64,000 bases of DNA from an uncultured Gammaproteobacteria bacterium (GCA_964552565.1 CAZKGL010000001.1:499061-563060), one strand, 5' to 3'; positions 614 to 61,095 are shown, counted from the stretch's first letter. Notes: generated from the sequence alone by a model not told the origin. A program made the numbers and translations.

Positions 614-1746
614 CCGAAAAGCGCGAGGACGATGTTTGCAATGAAGACGAGCCCCGCGGACAACACGGCCCATCGCGGGACGAAGAGGGAGCGTTTCGCG
701 GTCTGCGGCTTTCGACGCAGTGTTTCGTAGGTCGCAATCAGGACGAGACCGGTGATGCCGATGAACACGCCGCCGGTGAAATCGATGACACCGATGAAAT
801 CGTCCGCGCCAACCATGACAAGGACCGGGGGGACGAACAGCGTCAGCGCCCAGGCCACCAGGTAGCGGAGACGGTAGTCGAACGCGTAGGTATTCGTCAT
901 GACCAGCGCGTGCGTCACGAACGCCGTCATGACCGTGCACATGCCGATCGCCGCGGCGATAAGCACGAATGCCGGGCCGAGCACGTCGGCGAGGCCGTGG
1001 ATCGTTTCCACCGAAGTCGCCTTCCCCGTCACGCCGACGACCGCAGTCACAAACACGAGGTAGAGGAGGCCGATAATGGCCATGCCGGCAAGGACGCTGC
1101 GCCGCAAGAGGTGCTTATGCCTGCCGAGCGCGTCGCGCATCTCGGGGACCGAGCCGAAGCCGGTGAACGCGAAAAGCGCAACGCCAAAGGGAAGGAAGAA
1201 CTTTTCCGGGTCGCCGGCGAGGGCGTAGTGGTCGATATCGATGTGCGGCGCGGCGAGGACGGCCAAGAGCGCCATGAGGCCGACGTAGGCGACAATGAGA
1301 TACTTCTGCAGCCGCGCGACGGTCGTCATGCCGCCGAACACGACAAGCGCGCCGAGGAAAAAGAACAGCGTGCGGTAGAACGCGACCGTCCCGCCGAGGA
1401 CCGGTGAGAACACTTGGTACGCGAAGCTGCCGCCGACGATGAGATACGCCGTCATGGCGCCGTACAGGCCGCCAAACAGGCCGACGGCCGCAAAGAACGC
1501 CCCGACGGGCCCCGCGTGCTCGCGAATAAGGCCGACGAAACGCGCGTGCCCTTTGGTGAGCACTGCCATGTCGGCGTACATGAGCACGGTAACCGCGCAG
1601 ACGACCGCGGAAAGCGCAAATGCCACCATGCCGACCCCAAACCCCGCCTGCGCGAAGACAAACGGCAAACCAAACATGCCTACGCCGACCACTTGCCCGA
1701 TCATCGGCCGCAGGCTCGCCCAAAACGCTTTTTTCGCATCCTCCAT
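610..1746 (-). CDS. APC-superfamily amino-acid transporter-like polytopic membrane protein
   Basis: 379 aa from internal Met MEDAKKAFWAS; ~11-12 hydrophobic helices; resembles Trp/Tyr-permease-type carriers; start uncertain. Confidence 0.55.
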   Translation of the reverse strand: MEDAKKAFWASLRPMIGQVVGVGMFGLPFVFAQAGFGVGMVAFALSAVVCAVTVLMYADMAVLTKGHARFVGLIREHAGPVGAFFAAVGLFGGLYGAMTAYLIVGGSFAYQVFSPVLGGTVAFYRTLFFFLGALVVFGGMTTVARLQKYLIVAYVGLMALLAVLAAPHIDIDHYALAGDPEKFFLPFGVALFAFTGFGSVPEMRDALGRHKHLLRRSVLAGMAIIGLLYLVFVTAVVGVTGKATSVETIHGLADVLGPAFVLIAAAIGMCTVMTAFVTHALVMTNTYAFDYRLRYLVAWALTLFVPPVLVMVGADDFIGVIDFTGGVFIGITGLVLIATYETLRRKPQTAKRSLFVPRWAVLSAGLVFIANIVLALFG

Positions 1747-1805
1747 ACCGCACCGATTATACCACGACGCTTTCCCCAGTCCGTCCACTTCCAGGCGCCA
1801 CCCCC

Positions 1806-3335
1806 ATGCGCTACGATGGCGGCGATATGTCGAGTGGAATGACGCGGGTCCCCCCGCACAATCTTGAAGCTGAGGAGTCGCTGCTCGGCGCAGTGCTTAT
1901 TGACCAGGAGACGCTGTTGAAAATCGGCGACCTGGTGAAGCCGGAGGATTTTTACAAGGACTCGCACCGCATCATCTTTGAAACGATGCTCGAACTTGCC
2001 GAACGCCACGACCCCATCGACATCCTGACCGTCGGCAACCGCTTGGAAGAAAAAAGCATCCTGAAGCAGGTCGGCGGGCGCACCGCGCTCGTCGAGCTGA
2101 CGAACACCGTGACGACGGCGGCGCACGTCGCGCACTACGCGGAGATCATCACGAAGAAAGCGCTCCTGCGGCGGCTGCTGCGCGCCGCGAGCGACATTAC
2201 CGAACTCGGCTACGACGAGACGCAGGACGCCGACCTCCTCATCGACGAGGCAGAGCAGAAGCTCTTTAACGTGTCGAGCAACGTCCATAAGACGAGTTTT
2301 GTCCCGCTGCGCTCGGTGCTGACGCAGGCGTTTGACCGGATCGACGAGCTGCACCGCGAGAAAGGCAAGCTGCGCGGCGTGCCGACCGGGTTCACCGGCC
2401 TCGACAACCTGCTGGCAGGCCTCCAGAAATCCGACCTCGTCATCCTCGCCGCCCGCCCGTCGGTCGGTAAAACGTCGTTCGCGCTCGACATCATGCGCTC
2501 GGTCGCGCTCCGCACCAAACAGCCGGTCGGGTTCTTCTCGCTCGAAATGAGCAAGGAACAGCTCGTCGACCGCCTCATTTGCGCCGAGGCCGGCGTCGAC
2601 CTCTGGAAGCTGCGCAACGGCCGCCTGTCCGACCACTCGGACGATTTTCCCCGCATCGGGGATGCGCTCGGCAAGCTCTCGGAGGCGCCGATTTACATTG
2701 ACGACTCGCCAATGGCGAACATTATGACCGTGCGCACGAAAGCGCGCCGCCTCCAGTCCGAACACGGCCTCTCGCTCATCGTCGTCGACTACTTGCAGCT
2801 CATGGAAGCGCGCAAGCAGACGGACAACCGCGTGCAAGAAGTCGCGGAGATTTCGCGCGGCTTGAAGCAGATCGCCCGCGAGCTCCAGGTGCCGGTCCTC
2901 GCCCTCGCGCAGCTCTCGCGTGCGGTAGAAAATGAAAAGCCGGCGATCCCGAAGCTTGCCCACCTCCGCGATTCGGGAAGCATCGAGCAGGACGCCGACG
3001 TCGTCATGTTCCTCTACCGCAAGGCCGCGGACCGCAACTACCAGCCCGACGAACTGACGCCCGAAGAAAAGAACGCGGCCGAAGTCCACGTCGCCAAGCA
3101 CCGCAACGGCCCGACGGGGATGGTAAAACTGTTCTGGGATGCGGCGCGCACGTCGTTCAAGAACCTCGACAAGGCGTATGGCGAGATGCCGGTGCCCATC
3201 GCCGCTGGCGGCGCCAAGCCTCCCGCGGATGCCACTGCCACCCTCCCCAGCCACCCTGCCACTCCGCCGGCAAACCCGAATGTCGGCCTGCCACCCGGCA
3301 TGCCGCCGAGGGGGTTTACACCGCCGCCACGGTAA
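1806..3335 (+). CDS. dnaB: replicative DNA helicase DnaB with Pro-rich C-terminal tail
   Basis: N-terminal LEAEESLLGAVL motif, Walker A ARPSVGKTSFAL, Walker B LIVVDYLQLM, RecA-like core; alternative starts 1827/1839. Confidence 0.9.
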   Translation: MRYDGGDMSSGMTRVPPHNLEAEESLLGAVLIDQETLLKIGDLVKPEDFYKDSHRIIFETMLELAERHDPIDILTVGNRLEEKSILKQVGGRTALVELTNTVTTAAHVAHYAEIITKKALLRRLLRAASDITELGYDETQDADLLIDEAEQKLFNVSSNVHKTSFVPLRSVLTQAFDRIDELHREKGKLRGVPTGFTGLDNLLAGLQKSDLVILAARPSVGKTSFALDIMRSVALRTKQPVGFFSLEMSKEQLVDRLICAEAGVDLWKLRNGRLSDHSDDFPRIGDALGKLSEAPIYIDDSPMANIMTVRTKARRLQSEHGLSLIVVDYLQLMEARKQTDNRVQEVAEISRGLKQIARELQVPVLALAQLSRAVENEKPAIPKLAHLRDSGSIEQDADVVMFLYRKAADRNYQPDELTPEEKNAAEVHVAKHRNGPTGMVKLFWDAARTSFKNLDKAYGEMPVPIAAGGAKPPADATATLPSHPATPPANPNVGLPPGMPPRGFTPPPR

Positions 3336-3413
3336 ATCCACACGCCGGATCCTGCTCGGCGTCACCCGGCGTTAGGTGACAAGCGCGCTTTTATTGGGTA
3401 ATATTGTCGCACT

Positions 3414-3719
3414 ATGTTCAACAAACTGAAGGAACTCAAAGACTTGCGCGACCAAGGAAAAAAGATGAAGGAAATGCTCGACGAGATCGTCGTCGTCGGC
3501 CAGGGCAGCCGCGGACAGGTCATGGTGACCTTGAACGGCAGCCACGACGTGCTTGGCGTGCAGATCGACGACGCCGTGGAGCGCGCGGCGATCGCCGTCG
3601 GCGTCAAGGAGGCGTTCGCGGACGCGAATAAGAAGCTGCAAACGGAACTCATGAAAAAGATGAAGGACATGGGCGGCCTGGGCGGCATCGGCGACATGAT
3701 GAAGAATATCGGCGGGTAA
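3414..3719 (+). CDS. ybaB: nucleoid-associated protein YbaB/EbfC
   Basis: ~100 aa, MFNKLKEL...GQGSRGQVMVTLNGSHDVLGVQID signature; conserved dnaX/ybaB/recR neighbourhood. Confidence 0.85.
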   Translation: MFNKLKELKDLRDQGKKMKEMLDEIVVVGQGSRGQVMVTLNGSHDVLGVQIDDAVERAAIAVGVKEAFADANKKLQTELMKKMKDMGGLGGIGDMMKNIGG

Positions 3720-3722
3720 GCC

Positions 3723-4322
3723 ATGCGCAAGTTCCCTACCCCAATCCATAATGCGATCGCTGCGCTGTCGCGGCTGCCCGGGGTCGGGCCGAAAACGGCG
3801 CTCCGGTATGCGTTCGCGCTTTTGCGGCTGCCGAAGCACGAACTCGAGGCGATCGCCGCGCACATCGCCGGGCTGCAGCACGTCGAGACCTGCGGCACAT
3901 GCTTTGCGTTTTCCGAACGGCGGACCTGCGAGATCTGCGGCGATCCGGCCCGCGACGCGCACCTGCTGTGCGTCGTCGCCGAGTCGCGCGACATCGCAAC
4001 CATCGAGGCGACGCATGCGTTTCGCGGGCGCTACTTCGTCCTCGGCGGCGCGTTGAACCCCATCGACGGCCACACGCCCGAGACGCTGCGCGTCGCGGAG
4101 CTCGTCGGCCGCCTCACCCTGCATCCGGAAATCAGTGAAATCATCCTCGCCTTCTCGCCCGACGTGCACGGGGAAACCACCATCCTCTACCTCGGCAAAC
4201 AGCTTGGCGCGCTCGGGCGAAAAACCACGCGTCTCGCCCGCGGGCTCCCTATCGGCGCGGATATCGAATACGCCGACGAGGTCACGCTCGCATCCGCATT
4301 GACGGGCCGTTCGGAAACATAA
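3723..4322 (+). CDS. recR: recombination protein RecR
   Basis: HhH N-terminus, C4 zinc finger CGTCFAFSERRTCEICGD, Toprim domain; 4-nt spacing after ybaB. Confidence 0.9.
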   Translation: MRKFPTPIHNAIAALSRLPGVGPKTALRYAFALLRLPKHELEAIAAHIAGLQHVETCGTCFAFSERRTCEICGDPARDAHLLCVVAESRDIATIEATHAFRGRYFVLGGALNPIDGHTPETLRVAELVGRLTLHPEISEIILAFSPDVHGETTILYLGKQLGALGRKTTRLARGLPIGADIEYADEVTLASALTGRSET

Positions 4323-5085: not shown

Positions 5086-5610
5086 TCATTGTAATGTGGA
5101 AAGAAAGACGCGCACCTGCTCAACCGCCGACGCCTTGCCTCCGGGCAAAAATGAGTTCACGACGACGAGATCCGGCCCAAGGTTGATGCGGTCGCGCGCC
5201 TCGTCCTCCTTGCGCCGCACCGGATCGGGATTCGGTTCGTAATGTTCGGGAATGATCTTGATGACGATGGGCGTGAAACCGTTCCGCCGCAAGTTGAGCA
5301 CGCCCTGCTCCACGAACGCCCCAACGCAAAAGCGGTGCGACGCCATTGCCGCATGGATGTCGGCACGCTGCGTGCCGTAATAGTTCGTCGCGTGCTCCAC
5401 GTGATGCGCGAATGCGTCCGCGGCGATGCGCCGCTCGAACTCCTCGCGGGAAATAAACTCATAATACACGGCGTCCTCATCGTCCCGCTGCGGGCGTGTG
5501 GTGACGGAACGAATGATCGTCACGTCGCCCGGCATCCGCGCGAGAAGCTCATCCATGATCGTCGTTTTTCCCGATTTACTCGGGCCGACAAAGGCGATCG
5601 CGTATCCCAT
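5086..5610 (-). CDS. gmk: guanylate kinase
   Basis: P-loop GPSKSGKTT and SVTTRPQRDDEDAVYYEFISREEF matching the Gmk TTRxxRxGExDGxxYxFVSxEEF motif; start at internal Met MGYAIAF. Confidence 0.65.
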   Translation of the reverse strand: MGYAIAFVGPSKSGKTTIMDELLARMPGDVTIIRSVTTRPQRDDEDAVYYEFISREEFERRIAADAFAHHVEHATNYYGTQRADIHAAMASHRFCVGAFVEQGVLNLRRNGFTPIVIKIIPEHYEPNPDPVRRKEDEARDRINLGPDLVVVNSFLPGGKASAVEQVRVFLSTLQ

Positions 5611-5645
5611 AGACGACCGCATTCTACCACAGCTATACTAGCCCC

Positions 5646-6836
5646 ATGCACCATCTTGTCCGCAACCTGTTGTTTGCCGTTTTTGTGGCCGCATTTGTGG
5701 TCGGCGCGCCGGTCGTCGTCCTCTATACCGCCGGCTACCGCTATAACCCCGTGAACGGGCTCGTCGTCCGTACGGGCGTGCTTTCGGTCGAGAGCGACCC
5801 CCGCGGCGCAGCCATCGCGCTCTCCGGCGAAACGACCGGCGAGAAGACGCCCTATATCTTCAACCGCGTCATGCCGGGCGACTACACCGTCGCGCTCAGC
5901 CGCGAAGGCTACCATACGTGGGAGCGGGAGGTGGCCGTTGCGAGCGGCGGAACGACGTACCTGAGCGACGTCGTCATGTTCCTCGACGAAGCGCCGGCGC
6001 TTGCCGCCGCGCTGCCGGAGGCGAGCCTTGCCGTGCCATCGGCCGACGGGAGGACGATCGCGCTCGTCGACCGCACCGAGCGCTCGGCGCGCATCTGGCT
6101 GTTTGACCCGGACGGGTCGTCGCAGCTCGACATGATTACCGAGTATCCCGCGAGGGCGAGCGACATGGTGTCGCTGACATGGAACGTCGACGCGACGCGG
6201 CTCACGCTGCACAACACGACGCAAGGGACGGCCGCGACCTTCACGACCGACGGCATCCTGCTCGCGGACGACGTACAGACGGATGCCGCCGCGCCGGTGG
6301 CGCTCGTCGCGAACGCCCAGGCGGTCGAGGTCTACGACGTGCGCGAGGGACGCACGCTCGTCGCGCTCCTGCCGCTCACGGAGTACCGCATTGCGGAAGC
6401 CGAAGACGGGACAGCGGTCATTGTCGGCGCAAACCACGCCATCTACGTCATCGACCTCGACGACGCCGACAACCCGATCGTCGTCAGCGCAAACGGCACC
6501 GCGTACGACTTCGACGCCGCCGCGCGACGCTTCGTGTGGACGGACGGCATTGAGTTGAATGCCGCGGACCTCGACACCGGCGAGCGGACGTTCATCACGC
6601 GCCAAAGCAACGCCATCATCGCGGTGGCGTGGTACCCCGAAAGCAATACCGTGCTCGTCGCGACGAACGACGACCTGCGCGCGTTCTCCCTGAACGACGG
6701 CGGAACGACGATTACCTCTTTGCTCGGCGACGCAACGATGTTCTCGTTCTCCCTTACCGAACACGCCGAATCCGCCTCCTTCTACGGCGAGTACGACGGC
6801 GTCCGCGGCGTGTTCATCCTCCCTCTCACCAAATAA
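5646..6836 (+). CDS. membrane-anchored PEGA-domain / beta-propeller-like protein
   Basis: N-terminal TM helix, PEGA-like segment (GETTGEKTPYIFNRVMPGDYTVALSREGYHTWEREVAV) followed by repetitive beta-rich region. Confidence 0.55.
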   Translation: MHHLVRNLLFAVFVAAFVVGAPVVVLYTAGYRYNPVNGLVVRTGVLSVESDPRGAAIALSGETTGEKTPYIFNRVMPGDYTVALSREGYHTWEREVAVASGGTTYLSDVVMFLDEAPALAAALPEASLAVPSADGRTIALVDRTERSARIWLFDPDGSSQLDMITEYPARASDMVSLTWNVDATRLTLHNTTQGTAATFTTDGILLADDVQTDAAAPVALVANAQAVEVYDVREGRTLVALLPLTEYRIAEAEDGTAVIVGANHAIYVIDLDDADNPIVVSANGTAYDFDAAARRFVWTDGIELNAADLDTGERTFITRQSNAIIAVAWYPESNTVLVATNDDLRAFSLNDGGTTITSLLGDATMFSFSLTEHAESASFYGEYDGVRGVFILPLTK

Positions 6837-8964: not shown

Positions 8965-9971
8965 ACGGTTTGGCCGAATTGGCGCGCGTACCAATCGCGG
9001 TATGCCGCGCTGTTGCGGATGGCGCGCCACCATGACTCGTTCTTGCGGTACCATTCTACCATGTTGCGCAGGCCGTCCTCGAAGGTGAACTGCTGCTGCC
9101 AGCCGAGGTCGCGCATGATTTTCGACGGGTCGATGGCGTACCGGCGGTCCTGGCCCGGACGGTCCTTGATGTACGTGATCATGTTCTCGTTCAGCCCCAT
9201 GACGCGGACGAGCAGCATCGCCGTCTCGAGCATGGAGTATTCCGCATTGCCCCCCATCATGTACGTCTCACCCGTCGCCCCGCGCTCGAGGATGGCCAGC
9301 ACGCCGAGACCGTGGTCGCGGACGTGGATCCAATCGCGCACCTGGTGGCCGTCGCCGTGGATGTGGATCGGCTTGCCGTCGAGGAGGTTCGTAATGGAAA
9401 TGGAAAGATATTTCTCCGGGTACAAGTACGGCCCGTAGTTGTTCGTGCAGTTGGAAATCGTCCCGCGCAGACCGTGGGTGTGCACCGCGGCGCGGACAAG
9501 ATGGTCGCTCGCCGCCTTCGTCGCGCTGTACGGGTTGCGCGGGTCGTACGGCGTGGCTTCGTGGAACTTCGGGTCCGTCGGGCCAAGCGAACCGAATACC
9601 TCGTCAGTCGAGACGTGGTGAAACCGCTTCTGGTACTTCACGCACGCGTCGACGAGACGCTGCGTGCCGAGCACGTTCGTCAAGATGAACGGCTCGTTAT
9701 CCATGATGCTGCGGTCGACATGCGTCTCGGCCGCGAAGTTCACGACCGCGTCGGCGTCGCGCACCAGCGTTTCGACGAGCTCCTTGTCGACGATGGAGCC
9801 GTAAATGAACCTGTAGCGCGGGTGCGTTTGGATGTCGACCGTCGTCGCCAAATTGCCGGCGTACGTCAAGGCGTCGAGGTTCACCACCTCCCAGTCCGGC
9901 CGCTCCGCCAGAATGACTCGGATGAAATGCGACCCGATAAACCCGCAGCCGCCCGTGACCAGCACTTTCAT
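8961..9971 (-). CDS. rmlB: dTDP-glucose 4,6-dehydratase
   Basis: MKVLVTGGCGFIGSHF, YSATKAASD catalytic motif, SDR-extended fold. Confidence 0.9.
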   Translation of the reverse strand: MKVLVTGGCGFIGSHFIRVILAERPDWEVVNLDALTYAGNLATTVDIQTHPRYRFIYGSIVDKELVETLVRDADAVVNFAAETHVDRSIMDNEPFILTNVLGTQRLVDACVKYQKRFHHVSTDEVFGSLGPTDPKFHEATPYDPRNPYSATKAASDHLVRAAVHTHGLRGTISNCTNNYGPYLYPEKYLSISITNLLDGKPIHIHGDGHQVRDWIHVRDHGLGVLAILERGATGETYMMGGNAEYSMLETAMLLVRVMGLNENMITYIKDRPGQDRRYAIDPSKIMRDLGWQQQFTFEDGLRNMVEWYRKNESWWRAIRNSAAYRDWYARQFGQTV

Positions 9972-16966: not shown

Positions 16967-17650
16967 ATGCGCCCGACGCGTGCATTCTGGTTCGGTATCG
17001 TCCCCGCACTGTTTCTCCAAGGCATCGGCGCGTATGCGTACTTTGTCCTGCTTGCTGACTCGCCCGCCGCGAGCCCGCTGTACGGTGCGGTGAAAATCCT
17101 CCTCGTCATCTGGCCGATTGTTTGGCTGAAGCTCGGCGCGCCGCTCCCGCGCTTCCGTCTTCCGTTCGACCGCCGCTCGATCGCGTACGGCCTCACTGCC
17201 GGACTCACGATGGCCGGCGCCATCGGTCTCTCCGCATGGTTCCAGTTTGATAATCTCGTACCGTTTGGGAATGCATTTTCAACAAAGGCCGACGACCTCT
17301 TTCCGCTGGCGTACTTTGTTCCTGTCGCGGTCGTCTTCAGCCTCGGCCACTCGTTATTCGAAGAGTATTTCTGGCGTTGGTTCGTGTTTGGAGGGCTTCG
17401 GACGCGAATGCCGGATGTCGCCGCGGCGTTCATCGGCAGCCTCGGGTTTACCATCCACCACATCGTCATTCTCAGCCAATTCTTCCCCGCCCCGCTCACC
17501 CTCCTGACGAGCGCGGGCGTATGTGTGGGCGGCCTCATCTGGTGTCATGCCTATCGCGCGACTGCAAGCCTGAGCGCCGGCTGGATAAGCCACGCACTCG
17601 TCGATGCGGCGATTTTCGGGGTCGGTTACGCAGTAATTTTTGCCAAATAG
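16967..17650 (+). CDS. CPBP (CAAX) family intramembrane metalloprotease
   Basis: EExxxR motif (FEEYFWRWF) and FxxxH (FTIHHIV) in TM helices. Confidence 0.7.
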   Translation: MRPTRAFWFGIVPALFLQGIGAYAYFVLLADSPAASPLYGAVKILLVIWPIVWLKLGAPLPRFRLPFDRRSIAYGLTAGLTMAGAIGLSAWFQFDNLVPFGNAFSTKADDLFPLAYFVPVAVVFSLGHSLFEEYFWRWFVFGGLRTRMPDVAAAFIGSLGFTIHHIVILSQFFPAPLTLLTSAGVCVGGLIWCHAYRATASLSAGWISHALVDAAIFGVGYAVIFAK

Positions 17651-17655
17651 TATTT

Positions 17656-17683
17656 GGAAGCTGAGCTTCGAAGCTCAGCTTCC
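17656..17683. repeat. REP element, 28-nt perfect palindrome GGAAGCTGAGCTTCGAAGCTCAGCTTCC (5' flank of RAYT)
   Basis: self-complementary; near-identical copies at 18442 and 49442. Confidence 0.8.
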
Positions 17684-17787
17684 AAGTTGTGGATACTTTT
17701 CTGAGATCGCTTGACGGGGGTCTTTGCATTTGAAAAACTGAAACTATCACTCCCCTCGCTCAAGGCGCGGGGCGTTTTATTTCGCGC

Positions 17788-18555
17788 GTGACTGAGAATA
17801 TGCGAAATGAACAGTTCACCATCGGCGGGTATTACCATATTTATAACCGCGGTGTAGACAAGAGGGATGTTTTTTGCGATCCAGATGATTATGAACGATT
17901 CGTTCGCTCGTTCATCTATCTCAATACGATGCCAACGCATGCATTCCCGCCAATCGCGCAGCTTACAACTCGACCTAACAATCAAGGCCACATCCATGTT
18001 CGCATCATGGCCTACGCGCTCATGCCAAACCATTTTCACTTCCTTATCGAACAAATAGGGGAGTTCGGGGTGACTGAATTCATGCATCGGCTTGGAACGA
18101 GTTACACAAAATATTTTAATCGCCGCTACGACAGATCTGGAAGGTTGTTTGAAAGTGAGTACAAAGTGGTTCCGATACAATCAGATGCGCATCTCTACCA
18201 CATCTCGCGATACATCCATCTGAACCCCCTTTCACTCTCCCCCGCCTCGCACAAACTAAAACGCTGTGCTGAAGACTGGAAACGGGCCGAGGAATTTCTT
18301 CTGCGGTATCCCTGGTCGAGCTACCGCAGCTATGTCGATCGGTGCACCGATGAAGTCAATCCTGACATGATATGGGACATGTTCTGTGGATCGACTGACT
18401 ACCGAGCATACATGCGCGAATGGTATTTATCTCCACAGTTCGGAAGCTCAGCTTCGAAGCTGAGCTTCCGACCGGGCATGGGGCAATTTTTGCCAAATAA
18501 CCGCTACAACTTGCAAAGAAACGACTTTTCTGCCTATCCTATGGCACCGTCCTAG
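17788..18555 (+). CDS. REP-associated tyrosine transposase (RAYT; IS200/IS605 TnpA-like Y1 HuH)
   Basis: HuH motif MPNHFHFLIE, catalytic Tyr motif SRYIHLNP, REP palindromes flanking; ORF reads through REP2 to 18555. Confidence 0.75.
   Translation: MTENMRNEQFTIGGYYHIYNRGVDKRDVFCDPDDYERFVRSFIYLNTMPTHAFPPIAQLTTRPNNQGHIHVRIMAYALMPNHFHFLIEQIGEFGVTEFMHRLGTSYTKYFNRRYDRSGRLFESEYKVVPIQSDAHLYHISRYIHLNPLSLSPASHKLKRCAEDWKRAEEFLLRYPWSSYRSYVDRCTDEVNPDMIWDMFCGSTDYRAYMREWYLSPQFGSSASKLSFRPGMGQFLPNNRYNLQRNDFSAYPMAPS
18442..18469. repeat. REP element GGAAGCTCAGCTTCGAAGCTGAGCTTCC (3' side of RAYT, inside its ORF)
   Basis: perfect palindrome, 2-nt variant of REP1 (central G/C swap). Confidence 0.8.
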
Positions 18556-18565
18556 GAGGTTCGTC

Positions 18566-19086: not shown

Positions 19087-19941
19087 TTATGCGAGGACCT
19101 TTTCTTTTTGCTCAAGCACCTCGGCGGCGAGTTCGATGAGCTCTTCAACACGGCTCTGCGGCAGTCCCGTCCGCCGCACGATGTCCTCAGTCTCATGCCG
19201 CGTCATGTCTTGGCACAAGATGAACCCGGCATTTGCGCATGCATGGAGCTCGTCGTCCGTCAGCCCGGCAAGCACGGTGACGGGGTAGAGTTTCGTTCCG
19301 TCGATCATGCTCGCCAACCCTTTGCCGTCCGGGTATTTCCAGCCGATCAGCCGCATCCCCTTGCACGTCCCGTAGCGCAGCGCGCGGTCGGAAAAGAGCC
19401 CGTTCGTGAGGATCCAGAACTCGTCAAAACGGGGACACAACTGCAATGCCGCGCCGTCGAGCAGGTCGAGATGCCGCGCGTACGAGGCCATCACGTCCTT
19501 GAGCCGCACGTGGTCGGTAAAACTATTGCGGAACTTGCACTCGATCGCGTAGGCGCGCTCGCCCTTCGTCGCGAGGACGTCGACCTCGTGGCGGACGCAT
19601 GCGCCCTGCAGCTCTTCCGGCAACTCCGTCTCATAGCCTTGCGTCCGCAAAAGGGCGGCGGTGTATTTTTCGAAAAGGAATCCGGCGGGTCCGAGACGCA
19701 GCAGCGCGTCACGCAGCGTATACCGGCACGCGACGCAGCGGTTCGTCGCGCGGAGCGCGCGTTCGACCAACGCGTAGATTTCGCGCGTCGAAGCCCCATC
19801 CTTTACCCGCGGCCGGACAAACTTCAACACGGCGGCGACGTCGTCGGCCTTGCCGCCGGCGCGGAAAATGCTCGCGCGGATTTTCTCCTCGTCAAACGGG
19901 ACGCGGTCGCCGCTCGACTTCACGATCATGGGCTGCGCCAC
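19087..19941 (-). CDS. ATP-cone domain fused to Mrr-like restriction endonuclease (PD-(D/E)XK)
   Basis: N-terminal ATP-cone (KSSGDRVPFDEEKIRASI), catalytic core EVDVLATKGERAYAIECKF. Confidence 0.65.
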   Translation of the reverse strand: MAQPMIVKSSGDRVPFDEEKIRASIFRAGGKADDVAAVLKFVRPRVKDGASTREIYALVERALRATNRCVACRYTLRDALLRLGPAGFLFEKYTAALLRTQGYETELPEELQGACVRHEVDVLATKGERAYAIECKFRNSFTDHVRLKDVMASYARHLDLLDGAALQLCPRFDEFWILTNGLFSDRALRYGTCKGMRLIGWKYPDGKGLASMIDGTKLYPVTVLAGLTDDELHACANAGFILCQDMTRHETEDIVRRTGLPQSRVEELIELAAEVLEQKEKVLA

Positions 19942-39538: not shown

Positions 39539-39556
39539 TGCCTTCGAACAAAAAAA

Positions 39557-39575
39557 CCGCGCATGCGGTTTTTTT
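39557..39575. terminator. bidirectional intrinsic terminator (CCGCGCATGCGG + T7 / A7)
   Basis: hairpin flanked by A-run and T-run between convergent ORFs. Confidence 0.7.
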
Positions 39576-39576
39576 G

Positions 39577-39828
39577 TTATCCCTTCACGAAAAATGCCGC
39601 GGCGAACGCCCCAAACACCAGGGTATAGCACACGACGAGCGCCAAGAGCCATGGCCGGACGCCGCGGCCGCCCATGCGCGCCTTGATGCCGAAAACGACG
39701 CCAGCGGCAGCAAGAAACCCTGCGCTAAGGAGAAACAGGCCTATCCAGAGCATAGCCGCCCCATTTTCCCATTCATGCACAGGAGCTGTCCAGAAAACCC
39801 TTGCAATTGCTGAGGTATTGCCGGACAA
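39577..39828 (-). CDS. small 2-TM membrane protein
   Basis: 83 aa hydrophobic. Confidence 0.4.
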   Translation of the reverse strand: MSGNTSAIARVFWTAPVHEWENGAAMLWIGLFLLSAGFLAAAGVVFGIKARMGGRGVRPWLLALVVCYTLVFGAFAAAFFVKG

Positions 39829-48144: not shown

Positions 48145-48178
48145 ACAAAAAACCCGCCGGTTGTACGGCGGGTTTTTT
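48145..48178. terminator. bidirectional intrinsic terminator A8-CCCGCCGG...CCGGCGGG-T6
   Basis: serves pilin (+) and tRNA-Tyr (-). Confidence 0.75.
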
Positions 48179-48263
48179 GGTGGGTCGGGAAGGGATCGAA
48201 CCTTCGAAGGCGTAAGCCAGCAGATTTACAGTCTGCCCCGTTTGACCACTTCGGTACCGACCC
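48178..48263 (-). tRNA. tRNA-Tyr(GTA), 86 nt with long variable arm, CCA encoded
   Basis: GGGTCGG acceptor, anticodon loop CTGTAAA, TTCGATC T-loop; close to E. coli tRNA-Tyr. Confidence 0.85.
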
Positions 48264-48482: not shown

Positions 48483-49319
48483 TCAGTAGAACGTCGCGCG
48501 GTAGTCGCTCCAGTCGTAGGTGCACTGCACCTTGAGCGCGGTCCGCGTCGCGTGGTTGTGGTACGTGAAGTGCAGGTCGTTGCTGCCGATGCCGTCCCGC
48601 TTCCAGTCGACGATCTCGTTCGTCGACGCCGCGTAGGGAGCTTCGGGATCGCCCGTGCGCCGCATGAGCGCGAGGCCGAGCCCGTCGACGAGGAGCACGT
48701 CGTCCTCGGCCATGACGCTCGTGTAGTGCTGCGCCGCGTCGTCGGGAACGAGCTCGCGGCCGTTCACGAGCGCGATCCAGCCGCCCACGTACGACCACGG
48801 CTCGGGGTCGCCCTCTTCCTCGTCCGTGTGCGGGTCGAGTCCGTACAGCTCGCCCTCGCGGCAATTGTAGTACTGCTCACCGGCCGCGACATGCATCGCG
48901 ACGTCGACCACGTCCGTCTCCTCGTCCACCTCGGTTTCGAACGGGACCATCACCAGGCGGTGGTAGTCGTTGACGATGAGCGGGTAGAAATCCTCGGTGT
49001 ACCCGTCCTCGTCCGGGAAGTACGGGTGCGCGAGGTCGGACTGCGTGACCTCGGGCCCGATGACGATGCGCACCGCGCCGGTGCCCACCGCGAACGTCGC
49101 GTGCGTTTCGCCCACCGCGAGTACGTCGCCGTCCCGGTACAGCGTGAGCGGCAGCGGGTGCGACTCGACCGTCCCGACACGCGGAACGACCGACAGCGTC
49201 GCGGTCGGCGATTCATACGGCTCTTCCGCCGCCGCCGTGTCGTCGCCGATGTCCGGCAAACCGGTTTCCTTGCCGGCGCCGTCCACACACCCCATCATCA
49301 CGAGCATCATGCCCCCCAT
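48483..49319 (-). CDS. lipoprotein, unknown function
   Basis: start MGGMMLVMMGC with GGGGGGA SD; the 470-aa track ORF is an upstream read-through across REP3. Confidence 0.5.
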   Translation of the reverse strand: MGGMMLVMMGCVDGAGKETGLPDIGDDTAAAEEPYESPTATLSVVPRVGTVESHPLPLTLYRDGDVLAVGETHATFAVGTGAVRIVIGPEVTQSDLAHPYFPDEDGYTEDFYPLIVNDYHRLVMVPFETEVDEETDVVDVAMHVAAGEQYYNCREGELYGLDPHTDEEEGDPEPWSYVGGWIALVNGRELVPDDAAQHYTSVMAEDDVLLVDGLGLALMRRTGDPEAPYAASTNEIVDWKRDGIGSNDLHFTYHNHATRTALKVQCTYDWSDYRATFY

Positions 49320-49441
49320 GTCATCCCCCCCAGGCAGGCACACGTCCCGCCACCTCATCCATGGCATACCGGAGGGGAATGTCAAGGAATCCTGCAAAAT
49401 GCGATGAAAACAAAAAAATACGCACGCCATCCCGAGCACTC

Positions 49442-49469
49442 GGAAGCTCAGCTTCGAAGCTGAGCTTCC
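49442..49469. repeat. orphan REP element GGAAGCTCAGCTTCGAAGCTGAGCTTCC
   Basis: identical to REP2; intergenic between DUF2231 gene stop and lipoprotein start. Confidence 0.8.
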
Positions 49470-49510
49470 GATGTCGTTTGCTGCGTTCGTGGGTGGGGTA
49501 CACCGACCGA

Positions 49511-49993
49511 CTATTCTCCGATAAGGATGTCGTAGATAACCCGCGCTGCGGGATCGATGTCCGGTCCGTAGATCATTGTGCCGCCAAGCGCGCCCGTAAC
49601 CGTCACGAAGACGAGACCGAGGACGGCGAGCGGGACCGCGACCGCGGGGCGCAGGATGAACGCCGCCGCGCGCACCAGCCGCGCCGGGGCTTGGGCTTTC
49701 AGGATGACGACGACGTGCGCGGCCGCGAGGAGCGCGAAGCACAGCAACGTGTACAACGCAAAGTCGCCGTGGACGTCGAGCAGCTTCGGCACCTCCCCGT
49801 CGATGCCCTGTTCTTGGATCCACCCGGTAAAGAATGTGGGAACCGCGGCAAGGGCGCCGAGGATGGCGAACCCGGCCTTCATGGGGAACCACCACGACTG
49901 CTTCGTCACCGCCGGCACGCGCGCAATCTCAATGACGGCGTACACCGTGAGCAGCGCGATCGGGAAGTGGACGAGGATCGGATGGAGGTTCAC
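49511..49993 (-). CDS. DUF2231-like membrane protein
   Basis: 4 TM, MNLHPILVHFPIALL start typical of the family; often next to cupredoxins. Confidence 0.5.
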   Translation of the reverse strand: MNLHPILVHFPIALLTVYAVIEIARVPAVTKQSWWFPMKAGFAILGALAAVPTFFTGWIQEQGIDGEVPKLLDVHGDFALYTLLCFALLAAAHVVVILKAQAPARLVRAAAFILRPAVAVPLAVLGLVFVTVTGALGGTMIYGPDIDPAARVIYDILIGE

Positions 49994-49999
49994 ACGCCC

Positions 50000-50536
50000 C
50001 TACTCTTCAACAACCAGCGTGCCCTTCATGCCCATGGCACGGTGGCTGCCGACCGAGCAGTAATACTCGAAGCTTCCCGCCGTGTCGGCGACGAACTCGA
50101 TCGTTTCCGACGCGCCTGCCGACAACTTCTGCGTTGCGGCGTTGAACTCGTCGATCTTCCAGTCATGGAATCCTTCCGCGTTCGTGAAGACGATGCGGAC
50201 CGTGTCGCCCTTCTTGACCGTGAGGCTCGTCTCCGAAAATGCGAAGTTGTTCCCGGTCACCGCAAACTCGCGCACGGTCGGTTCCGCAGCATCCCCGACG
50301 ATGATATTCGCAGTGCCGTCAGCGCCCACGTCAATCTCGATCGTCGCCCCGGCCGGGTCGTCCTCGCCCTCGACGACCATCTCCTCCGCGTCCGACGTCG
50401 TGCCATCTTCTTCAATCACCGGCATGGTCGCGGACGTGCCCGCGTCGACCGAGGTGTCCGTCGTGGATTCAGCAGCGCAACCGGCGCCGGCAAGCAAAAG
50501 GAGCGAGGCAACAATGAGTGACGTACGCATACACAC
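50000..50536 (-). CDS. plastocyanin/azurin-type cupredoxin lipoprotein
   Basis: lipobox LAGAGC; type-1 Cu ligands H...C..H..M (HDW...YYCSVGSHRAMGM). Confidence 0.75.
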   Translation of the reverse strand: MCMRTSLIVASLLLLAGAGCAAESTTDTSVDAGTSATMPVIEEDGTTSDAEEMVVEGEDDPAGATIEIDVGADGTANIIVGDAAEPTVREFAVTGNNFAFSETSLTVKKGDTVRIVFTNAEGFHDWKIDEFNAATQKLSAGASETIEFVADTAGSFEYYCSVGSHRAMGMKGTLVVEE

Positions 50537-54787: not shown

Positions 54788-54965
54788 ACGAAAATAGTGA
54801 TAATGCCATGCCGTACATGCACATGGTATAAGGAACGACCCTGCGCGTCTATTGCTCGGCCCAAGGAGGCCGCATTTTGCCCCCAACGAAAATACCGCTG
54901 CATCAGCGGTATTTTTGCGGCACGGCATCGCGAGCCAAGCGAGAACTCTTGCAACAACGGTGTGA

Positions 54966-61057: not shown

Positions 61058-61095
61058 GTATCGAAAAAACATCCGGCCGGATGTTTTTTCGATAC
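61058..61095. repeat. 38-nt perfect palindrome GTATCGAAAAAACATCCGGCCGGATGTTTTTTCGATAC
   Basis: read directly; intergenic upstream of HAD hydrolase gene. Confidence 0.7.

What the first reader, a model, noticed from the sequence alone, without database searches (positions are those of the whole stretch)
17656..18469. REPtron: RAYT transposase bracketed by 28-nt perfect-palindrome REPs, with an unusual self-complementary REP design
REP1 (GGAAGCTGAGCTTCGAAGCTCAGCTTCC) and REP2/REP3 (GGAAGCTCAGCTTCGAAGCTGAGCTTCC) are each their own reverse complement. They differ only by a G/C swap at the centre of each half-site. Each can fold as one 14-bp hairpin or as two short hairpins. The RAYT ORF reads through REP2, which translates as GSSASKLSF in both orientations, so the palindrome is tolerated inside coding sequence. 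This explains the spurious ORF extensions at 48483-49895 and 49361-50521. REPtrons are mainly described in Proteobacteria. One in this lineage is notable.
Basis: seen in the sequence. Interest (0 to 1): 0.6.

Follow-up and report, generated by a model that had tools for sequence, protein, structure and literature searches.

The report
Palindrome-ended tyrosine-transposase insertion in small genome
An 835-base mobile element encoding a RAYT-like (HUH/tyrosine) transposase, capped at both ends by a perfect 32-base palindrome, recently inserted at the stop codon of a host gene and duplicated 15 bases of target, which known transposons of this enzyme class do not do.

Summary
Three perfect palindromes, each 32 nt rather than 28, lie at 17654-17685, 18440-18471 and 49440-49471. 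None is expected by chance. Two of them bracket an intact Y1 HUH gene whose best structural match is E. coli TnpAREP (4ER8).

"REPtron" is right for the anatomy but not for the biology.
- The unit is an 835-nt insert of 49% GC in 64% GC DNA.
- It is absent from two syntenic relatives.
- It is flanked by an exact 15-bp duplication of the host target.
- The motifs (NHFH, YIHLNP, WSS) match Quentin subclass 2.1 / Bertels Group 1 / TIRYT, not classical REP-associated RAYTs.
- Dispersal is low: one solo palindrome in 64 kb.

All seven homologous loci fetched by protein carry a palindrome upstream of the gene and one at or just past the end of the conserved coding region. The palindromes have odd length and are lineage-specific. 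Several share the core GAAGCTNAGCTTC or the centre CTNAG. The window's palindrome is two such units abutted in inverted orientation, like a REPIN with no spacer. The same kind of doublet occurs solo in other metagenomes, once in frame inside a MiaB-like gene.

Verdict: a new variant of the REPtron/TIRtron kind. The 15-bp duplication is unexplained.

The parts
17635..17649 (.). Left copy of the 15-bp target-site duplication AATTTTTGCCAAATA. It comprises the last codons of the CPBP gene (I-F-A-K) plus the first two bases (TA) of its stop codon.
   Evidence: Exact direct repeat 850 nt from its partner. The empty site of syntenic relative L012 holds a single copy.
17650..18484 (+). Whole 835-nt insert, the mobile element. 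GC is 49% against 64% in the 5 kb on each side.
   Evidence: for composition. Searches show relatives L012 and L013 with the CPBP gene followed directly by the 153/156-aa gene across a 64-66 nt spacer.
17654..17685 (.). REP1, the left-end palindrome: a perfect 32-nt palindrome made of unit GAAGCTGAGCTTC followed by its reverse complement GAAGCTCAGCTTC.
17656..17693 (.). Left arm of the 38-nt terminal inverted repeat, 87% complementary to 18432-18469.
   Evidence: pair I1.
17754..17782 (+). Terminator-like hairpin plus T-run in the 5' leader of the transposase gene. The homologous Uhrbacteria elements appear by eye to have a similar hairpin plus T-run at the same relative place; this is my reading of the sequences, not a tool call. 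It may insulate the gene from read-in transcription (inference).
   Evidence: The comparison rests on the L006 and L009 leader sequences shown.
17800..18555 (+). Y1 HUH transposase ORF (RAYT/TIRYT-like). ATG 17800 is the start supported by homologues. HuH lies at 18031-18039 (H-F-H) and the catalytic Tyr at 18211-18213 (RYIHLNP). The conserved part ends near 18440, and the rest is read-through of REP2 and host DNA.
18432..18469 (.). Right arm of the terminal inverted repeat.
18440..18471 (.). REP2, the right-end palindrome: a perfect 32-nt palindrome with the units in the opposite order (C-centred, then G-centred). It lies where homologues have their stop codon.
18485..18499 (.). Right copy of the 15-bp target-site duplication. 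It is followed by the native intergenic sequence, which aligns with L012.
49440..49471 (.). REP3, a solo palindrome identical to REP2 over 32 nt with unrelated flanks. It sits in the spacer between the DUF2231 gene (stop at 49511) and the next gene on the minus strand. It is absent from that spacer in relatives.

Best explanation
This is an IS-like mobile element of the REPtron/TIRtron kind: a single Y1 HUH tyrosine-transposase gene whose two ends are perfect 32-nt palindromes.

Shown:
- The element is an insertion. It landed between the second and third base of the stop codon of a CPBP-protease gene and left that ORF intact.
- It duplicated 15 bp of target.
- It differs strongly in GC from its host.
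- Homologous genes in other small-genome bacteria are always bracketed by palindromes that differ between lineages but resemble each other.
- In two paralogous Uhrbacteria elements, similarity begins and ends exactly at the outer palindromes.
- A solo copy of the right-end palindrome lies 31 kb away and is missing from relatives.

Inferred, by analogy with IS608, ISDra2 and E. coli TnpAREP, whose folds it shares:
- The protein recognises the palindrome as a DNA hairpin or cruciform.
- It nicks next to it through the HuH-bound metal and Tyr138, forming a 5'-phosphotyrosine link.
- It rejoins the ends, moving either the whole gene-carrying unit or the palindrome doublet alone, as with a REPIN.

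The 13-nt odd-length palindrome GAAGCTNAGCTTC is the basic recognition unit, and the window's 28-32-nt sequence is two units abutted in inverted orientation. The only difference between the left and right ends is the order of the G-centred and C-centred units, which may be what tells the ends apart.
For: Protein:
- Pfam Y1_Tnp E = 8.5e-10.
- H78, H80, Y138 and N142 are invariant in 53 sequences.
- The AlphaFold model has pLDDT 83.7.
- The top Foldseek hit is 4ER8 TnpAREP, E = 2e-5, followed by the IS608 and ISDra2 TnpA structures.

Insertion:
- Relatives L012 and L013 keep the gene order 640-aa gene, CPBP gene, 153-aa gene, ATP-cone/Mrr gene, with no transposase.
- L012 has one copy of the duplicated 15-mer region, and its downstream spacer aligns with the window's right flank.
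- Element GC is 0.49 against 0.64 in the flanks.

Ends:
- 38-nt terminal inverted repeat.
- Similarity between paralogues L006 and L009 is bounded by the outer palindromes.

Recurrence of flanking palindromes:
- L005, L006 and L009; L016, L018 and L019; L022; L002.
- Shared core: GAAGCTNAGCTTC in the window, L002-L004 and L016; GAAGCTCGGCTTC in L018; ACTNAGT centres in L005 and L019.

Solo copies:
- REP3; L003 and L004; an inverted doublet in L018 5.7 kb from the gene.
Against: - No activity is shown.
- There is only one gene copy and one solo palindrome in 64 kb, so current mobility is unproven. The full 839-kb source genome could not be searched.
- A 15-bp target duplication does not fit the single-strand peel-and-paste mechanism of known Y1 transposons, which make none. 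The mechanism borrowed by analogy may therefore be wrong in an essential step.
- The palindrome is perfect and identical on both strands. It lacks the bulges and the 5' GTAG/CGTC tag that give IS200/IS605 ends and classical REPs their strand specificity.
- No cleavage site could be deduced.
- Six of the eight elements examined show no flanking direct repeat.
Confidence: 0.78

Rival explanations
1. It is a classical domesticated REPtron: a resident, vertically inherited single-copy RAYT that maintains a high-copy REP/REPIN population for the host.
For: The gene is flanked by palindromes, and one identical solo copy lies elsewhere. The best structural match is TnpAREP. In one Uhrbacteria lineage the homologue sits at the same locus in 24 contigs from many samples.
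Against: It is absent from two syntenic relatives, it has a target duplication, and its GC is 15 points lower than the host's. NCBIfam RAYT scores 38.5 bits against the 80-bit cut-off. The motifs are those of subclass 2.1 / Group 1, the most IS-like RAYT group, reported without REPs. There is no GTAG or CGTC tag. Only one solo copy is seen in 64 kb, and homologous loci show 0-1 solo copies in 20 kb.
Confidence: 0.12
2. It is a dead relic. The gene is a decaying pseudogene that lost its stop codon, and the palindromes are inert leftovers.
For: The ORF runs 36 codons past the conserved end, through REP2 and into host DNA. The public annotation calls only a 182-aa product starting at internal Met74.
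Against: All invariant and nearly invariant family residues are present, and there is no frameshift or internal stop. The model is confident over residues 1-215. The 15-bp duplication and all three 32-nt palindromes are still perfect, so the insertion is young. The closest homologue, in L005, also reads through its 3' palindromes, so read-through is a recurrent and tolerated feature.
Confidence: 0.07
3. The palindromes are host regulatory hairpins (terminators or protein-binding sites) that happen to lie near the gene, or they are ends used by an unrelated DDE-type transposase acting in trans. The latter would explain the inverted repeats plus target duplication.
For: The same 26-nt core occurs as the stem of a genuine bidirectional terminator in an unrelated Firmicute. 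Terminal inverted repeats plus a target duplication are the hallmark of DDE transposons. REP1 sits 4 nt after a stop codon.
Against: No T-run follows REP1, REP2 or REP3 on the relevant strands; the one terminator-like call has a poor tail. The palindromes lie inside the inserted low-GC segment and are missing from relatives. The association with this one protein family holds across homologues sharing 33-48% identity with the window protein, in 8 of 8 loci, with a conserved centre. No second transposase gene lies in the element, and no other copy of it is in the window.
Confidence: 0.03

Closest known systems
TIRtron / TIRYT (Di Nocera et al. 2013, PMC3733652), equivalent to TnpAY1 subclass 2.1 (Quentin et al. 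2018, PMC6006769) and RAYT Group 1 (Bertels et al. 2017, PMC5581495)
   Same: - It is a RAYT-like Y1 gene flanked by terminal inverted repeats, some of which that paper describes as wholly self-complementary or 'double palindromic'.
- The repeats belong to no family or only a small one.
- The motif signature matches: NH[YF]H, Y[IV]HLNP and an 'SS' tail motif.
- It is the most IS-like, horizontally moving RAYT group.
   Different: - There is no C-terminal HTH / DnaA_C-like domain; Pfam finds only Y1_Tnp, and the conserved protein ends near residue 215.
- The repeats lack the GGGGWSAS motif.
- The ends are perfect odd-palindrome units with a CTNAG centre.
- A target duplication is present, and neither paper read here reports one for TIRtrons.
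- The hosts are Patescibacteria and Omnitrophota, which those surveys did not sample.
REPtron: E. coli-type RAYT/TnpAREP with REP/BIME (Nunvar 2010; Ton-Hoang 2012; structure 4ER8)
   Same: - It is the best structural match.
- It shares the Y---NP class-2 motif.
- The gene is bracketed by hairpin-forming palindromes that also occur away from the gene.
- Palindromes overlap the 3' end of the gene.
   Different: - It scores below the NCBIfam equivalog cut-off.
- There is no GTAG tag and no bulged imperfect stem.
- Copy number is very low.
- It is not a resident locus; it is a fresh insertion with a 15-bp duplication.
REPIN (Bertels & Rainey 2011, PMC3116915)
   Same: The dispersed form is two inverted units that together make one long hairpin. 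It is non-autonomous and presumably moved by the linked Y1 enzyme. L018 shows a solo inverted doublet with a 4-nt spacer.
   Different: The window's doublet has no spacer at all and is only 28-32 nt long. The units are themselves palindromes, so their orientation is carried by a single central base. Abundance is orders of magnitude lower.
IS200/IS605 (IS608, ISDra2)
   Same: The catalytic fold and the HuH + Tyr chemistry are shared. Hairpins lie at both ends of a small single-gene element.
   Different: - The motif is Y---NP, not Y---Q.
- The ends are perfect palindromes in an inverted-repeat arrangement.
- A target duplication is present.
- There is no tnpB.
Rickettsia palindromic elements and intragenic REPs (Di Nocera 2013)
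   Same: Short palindromic repeats are tolerated in frame within protein-coding genes: L004 MiaB-like, units inside the variable loop of the transposases themselves in L002 and L018, and read-through of REP2 here.
   Different: The sequence family is different, the elements are much shorter, and they are linked to an identifiable transposase.

Membership tests
Y1 HUH transposase superfamily (Pfam PF01797, TnpAY1) | Score above the Pfam gathering threshold | tested here: met
   39.3 bits against a cut-off of 23, E = 8.5e-10.
Y1 HUH transposase superfamily (Pfam PF01797, TnpAY1) | HuH motif and a single catalytic tyrosine on the following helix | tested here: met
   H78-F-H80 and Y138 are invariant in the 53-sequence alignment. 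They align with the HuH and Tyr of ISDra2 TnpA.
Y1 HUH transposase superfamily (Pfam PF01797, TnpAY1) | Y1 HUH fold | tested here: met
   Model pLDDT is 83.7. Foldseek against the PDB gives 4ER8 at E = 2e-5 (target-normalised TM 0.67), then the 2A6M, 2XO6, 2XM3 and 2VJV transposases.
Class 2 TnpAY1 (RAYT-like), Quentin 2018 | Y---NP motif rather than the Y---Q of IS200 | tested here: met
   YIHLNP, with N142 invariant.
RAYT sensu stricto (NCBIfam NF047646, REP-associated tyrosine transposase equivalog) | Score above the curated cut-off | tested here: not met
   38.5 bits against a cut-off of 80.
REPtron (RAYT + REP) | Gene flanked on both sides by copies of a palindromic repeat | tested here: met
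   REP1 at 17654-17685 and REP2 at 18440-18471. The same arrangement is seen in 8 of 8 homologous loci.
REPtron (RAYT + REP) | The same repeat dispersed in high copy number through the genome (tens to hundreds) | tested here: inconclusive
   One solo copy in the 64-kb window. Homologous loci show 0-1 solo copies in 20 kb. The full source genome is not available, and the genome collection scan did not contain it.
REPtron (RAYT + REP) | Imperfect hairpin with a conserved 5' GTAG or CGTC tetranucleotide | tested here: not met
   The palindrome is perfect and has no tag. The flanks of the three copies share only TT/TC and AA/GA.
REPtron (RAYT + REP) | Resident, vertically inherited locus | tested here: not met
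   Empty sites in syntenic relatives, a 15-bp duplication, and 49% against 64% GC.
TIRtron / TIRYT, equivalent to subclass 2.1 | RAYT-like gene flanked by terminal inverted repeats | tested here: met
   38-nt arms, 87% complementary.
TIRtron / TIRYT, equivalent to subclass 2.1 | Motif signature NH[YF]H / Y[IV]HLNP / SS tail motif | tested here: met
   NHFH, YIHLNP and WSS are seen in the alignment and compared with Table 1 of Quentin 2018. The comparison was by eye, not with their HMMs.
TIRtron / TIRYT, equivalent to subclass 2.1 | C-terminal HTH (Bac_DnaA_C / HTH_23 / HTH_28-like) domain | tested here: not met
   Pfam reports only Y1_Tnp. Homologues are about 220 aa. The model shows short helices after Tyr138 and then a disordered tail.
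TIRtron / TIRYT, equivalent to subclass 2.1 | GGGGWSAS motif in the repeats (majority type) | tested here: not met
   The motif is absent from the arms.
IS200/IS605 | No terminal inverted repeats and no target duplication; insertion 3' of a tetra- or pentanucleotide | tested here: not met
   Both inverted repeats and a 15-bp duplication are present.
REPIN | Two inverted REP units forming one long hairpin, found away from the transposase | tested here: met
   REP3 is unit plus inverted unit and forms a 14-bp stem. The spacer length is zero, which is atypical.
Intrinsic terminator | GC-rich hairpin followed directly by a T-run | tested here: not met
   There is no T-run after REP2 or REP3. The only call, on the minus strand of REP1, has the tail ATACTATTTG. 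On the minus strand the nearest T-run to REP3 is 21 nt away.

The most novel reading that the evidence does not exclude
This clade of Y1 HUH enzymes may transpose by a route not known for the superfamily. Because its ends are perfect palindromes that are identical on both strands, the enzyme could cut both strands, for example at an extruded cruciform. It would then insert a double-stranded or hairpin-ended element into a target opened with a 15-nt stagger, producing a target-site duplication. The 28-32-nt doublet would then be the smallest known autonomous-transposase-dependent mobile unit, able to land in frame inside genes.
Probability: 0.2. Interest if true: 0.75.

Novelty: new variant of a known kind. 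Interest (0 to 1): 0.5.

Why it matters
RAYT-like enzymes are widespread, yet how they move DNA is still unsettled. For the largest group (subclass 2.1 / Group 1) published surveys found no cognate repeats.

This case offers three things:
- A clean filled-site versus empty-site pair, which fixes the element's boundaries to the base.
- A family-wide pairing of the protein with odd-length palindromes that share a CTNAG centre. That is a ready-made substrate prediction for biochemistry.
- A 15-bp target duplication, which the accepted single-strand mechanism does not predict.

It also shows that very small genomes (an 839-kb contig, probably Patescibacteria) carry this kind of element and tolerate its palindromes inside coding sequence. 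Annotators should know this: the palindromes extend ORFs, and the public annotation of this gene is truncated.

Tried and rejected
- **Genome-wide count of the palindrome.** The source genome is not in the species-representative collection. The single hit, L001, is an unrelated bidirectional terminator in Candidatus Scatomorpha with A- and T-runs on either side. It is treated as a chance match, because a palindrome built from palindromes has very low complexity.
- **Exact look-up of the annotated 182-aa product** to fetch the source contig: not on record. The cluster look-up gave no accession or organism name.
- **Single-sequence search against PDB sequences:** no hit at E <= 1. The profile gave only weak hits, 2XM3 at E = 0.035 and 4ER8 at E = 0.57. 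Fold comparison was needed.
- **Target duplications around REP3 and around the solo doublets in L003 and L004:** none seen by eye. Intergenic DNA of relatives with 63-69% protein identity is too diverged to place REP3's boundaries.
- **Direct repeats flanking seven other elements:** only L009 has one, 13 nt long. Its offsets differ, and its left copy lies in the loop of a 15-bp hairpin, so it is left as ambiguous.
- **A protein present on many contigs (P0102),** looked up in the hope of finding several insertion sites: all 24 contigs show the same locus.
- **Sigma-70 promoter scan of the element:** no site passed. The TTGACG...AAAACT pair at about 17706-17734 is only a weak match seen by eye.
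- **Second transposase copy or remnant near REP3:** none by tblastn.
- **Rfam:** only three tRNAs in the window, and nothing at the palindromes.
- **Literature:** no paper in the held library mentions RAYT together with Patescibacteria, CPR, Parcubacteria or Omnitrophica. This is not proof that none exists.

Full report
**1. Observation**

They are far beyond chance: the pattern, even with up to 3 mismatches, has 3 matches in the window and 0 in 100 shuffles. A scan for perfect palindromes shows that each is 32 nt, not 28:
- REP1, 17654-17685: TTGGAAGCTGAGCTTCGAAGCTCAGCTTCCAA.
- REP2, 18440-18471, and REP3, 49440-49471: TCGGAAGCTCAGCTTCGAAGCTGAGCTTCCGA.

The building block is the 13-nt odd palindrome GAAGCTSAGCTTC. 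All six units in the window lie in these three sites. REP1 is the G-centred unit followed by the C-centred unit, and REP2 and REP3 have the reverse order. Each doublet is therefore its own reverse complement, yet the left and right ends are not copies of each other.

As single-stranded DNA each folds into one 14-bp stem with a 4-nt loop (-16 to -19 kcal/mol, z about -6 to -7). A lone unit, as found in L002, gives only about -5 kcal/mol.

**2. The gene**

ORF 17788-18555 matches Pfam Y1_Tnp above threshold. It falls below the NCBIfam RAYT equivalog cut-off, 38.5 against 80 bits.

A search of the large protein collection found 4,396 relatives. The best are about 220 aa, and the named ones come from Candidatus Uhrbacteria, other Patescibacteria and Omnitrophota. 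They cover only about 82% of the query.

In a 53-sequence alignment the start aligns with ATG 17800. H78, H80 (NHFH), Y138 and N142 (RYIHLNP) are invariant, and a WSS motif follows. This signature is the one tabulated for TnpAY1 subclass 2.1, which corresponds to Bertels Group 1 and to the TIRYT proteins of Di Nocera (PMC6006769).

The AlphaFold model is confident (pLDDT 83.7) except for residues 216-251. That tail begins at nucleotide 18445, inside REP2, so the read-through is not part of the family fold. The best structural match in the PDB is E. coli TnpAREP bound to a REP hairpin (4ER8, E = 2e-5), followed by the IS608 and ISDra2 transposases. The condition 'lacks the Y1 HuH fold' is therefore refuted.

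**3. It is an insertion with a target duplication**

- The region 17650-18560 is a low-GC island. The 835-nt insert is 49% GC against 64% on each side.
- An exact 15-nt direct repeat, AATTTTTGCCAAATA, lies just outside the palindromes at 17635-17649 and 18485-18499. The inverted repeat extends about 10 nt inward from each palindrome, giving 38 nt at 87%.
- Two relatives found through the upstream CPBP protease (69% and 61% identity) keep the local gene order. There the CPBP gene is followed after 64-66 nt by the 153/156-aa gene, with no transposase.
- The alignment shows one copy of the 15-mer region in L012, continuous with a spacer that aligns with the window's right flank.

The window therefore carries an insert at 17650-18484 plus a 15-bp duplication of target. 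The break fell inside the stop codon, between the second and third base. The element supplies the third base (TAG on the left, native TAA on the right), so the CPBP ORF is unchanged.

**4. The association is a property of the family**

A metagenome scan for the doublet with free central bases returned three contigs.
- In L002 a 218-aa homologue has the doublet GAAGCTTAGCTTCGAAGCTAAGCTTC 17 nt upstream of its start. It also has single units at its stop codon and inside its variable loop.
- L003, from the same metagenome, has the same 30-nt palindrome overlapping the last codons of an unrelated gene.
- L004 has it in frame inside an intact 484-aa MiaB-like ORF.

Seven loci fetched by protein alone all show odd palindromes upstream of the gene and one at or just past the end of the conserved coding region:

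| Locus | Palindrome |
|---|---|
| L005 (54% identity) | GGGAACTSAGTTCCC type, also read through by the ORF |
| L006 and L009 (two paralogues, both also present in one Uhrbacteria assembly) | TTACCAACG..CGTTGGTAA |
| L016 | ATGTGTGAAGCTNAGCTTCACACAT |
| L018 (Omnitrophota) | TGATTGAAGCTCGGCTTCGATCA |
| L019 | AAGTTGAAGACTNAGTCTTCAACTT |
| L022 | TTGTCGTAAGTCSGACTTACGACAA |

Several lineages share GAAGCTNAGCTTC or the centre CTNAG. Between the paralogues L006 and L009, similarity starts and stops exactly at the outer palindromes. The palindromes are therefore the termini of the mobile unit.

Solo copies are rare. There are none in most 20-kb flanks. L018 has one inverted doublet 5.7 kb from the gene. 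The window has REP3, which is absent from the corresponding spacer of two syntenic relatives.

**5. Interpretation**

The anatomy is that of a REPtron/TIRtron. Di Nocera et al. already noted TIRYT genes with self-complementary and 'double palindromic' repeats and with small or absent repeat families. Intragenic REPs are also known. Group 1 is the most IS-like RAYT group.

Several features differ here:
- The ends are perfect doublets with no spacer.
- There is no C-terminal HTH domain.
- The repeats lack the GGGGWSAS motif.
- The hosts are different.
- There is a clean 15-bp target duplication. IS200/IS605 elements make none, and neither paper read here reports one for TIRtrons.

I commit to this model: a Y1 enzyme recognises the palindrome as a hairpin or cruciform and moves either the whole unit or the doublet alone. 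Which strand is cut, where it is cut, and how the duplication arises are all inferred or unknown. A second possible duplication, 13 nt in L009, is ambiguous.

**6. Limits**

- The source genome could not be searched as a whole, so the copy number of the palindrome is unknown.
- The lineage is inferred from neighbours' best named hits (Uhrbacteria, Parcubacteria, Doudnabacteria at 37-44% identity) and from the 839-kb contig size. It is not based on a marker gene.
- No paper in the held library links RAYTs with these phyla.

**7. Verdict**

It is a new variant of a known kind, of moderate interest. The target duplication and the family-wide palindrome code are the points worth following up.

Noticed in passing
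window 17800-18555, compared with public protein P0001: The public annotation of this gene is a 182-aa product starting at internal Met74. It lacks the N-terminal strand and the conserved YHxYNRG motif, while including the non-conserved read-through tail.
   Followed up: partly
L009 9805-9817 and 10699-10711: A 13-nt direct repeat, GAGACGAATTCGT, flanks a homologous Uhrbacteria element. The left copy lies in the loop of a perfect 15-bp hairpin (9776-9790 / 9818-9832). It may be a second target duplication or something else.
   Followed up: partly
L002 1722-1738; L018 10164-10186; protein P0014 ('TKLSF'): Single palindrome units sit inside the transposase genes themselves, in the variable loop before the HuH strand. 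In L002 the unit is translated as ..KLSF... This recalls the REP insertions reported within subclass 2.4 tnpAREP genes.
   Followed up: partly
L004 5801-5826, inside ORF 5121-6575: The T/A variant of the doublet lies in frame (..TSKLSFEAKLRN..) inside an intact 484-aa radical-SAM MiaB-like gene. Whether it is an insertion relative to close homologues was not tested.
   Followed up: partly
L003 230-350, and the LeuRS ORF 1688-4261 (minus strand): A different repeat appears twice in frame in a leucyl-tRNA synthetase, translated as ..IASEAKQSHANNSEIATSPSAPRNDK.. and ..EKQSRYNYSEIAASPTTPRNDK... It also seems to occur in the neighbouring intergenic DNA. It looks like another family of palindromic inserts in coding sequence.
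   Followed up: no
L018 4230-4272: A solo inverted doublet of the Omnitrophota-type unit, with a 4-nt spacer, lies in a 75-nt intergenic gap 5.7 kb from the transposase gene. It looks like a REPIN.
   Followed up: partly
window 39547-39578, 48146-48179, 54889-54915, 61058-61095: Long perfect hairpins with A-runs and T-runs on either side look like bidirectional intrinsic terminators. One example is the 38-nt GTATCGAAAAAACATCCGGCCGGATGTTTTTTCGATAC. They are unrelated to the REP family.
   Followed up: no
window 19087-19941 (minus strand): A 284-aa protein combines an ATP-cone, an Mrr-type restriction-endonuclease domain and an AF1548-like C-terminal domain. It is conserved at the same position in relatives L012 and L013.
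   Followed up: no
L022-L031: One Uhrbacteria homologue (P0102) is found at the same SerRS | transposase | protein-kinase locus in 24 contigs from many samples. In that lineage the element is fixed rather than visibly mobile.
   Followed up: partly
L001 395-445: The same 26-nt core forms the stem of an ordinary bidirectional terminator in Candidatus Scatomorpha merdavium. This is a reminder that nested palindromes have low complexity and can match by chance.
   Followed up: yes
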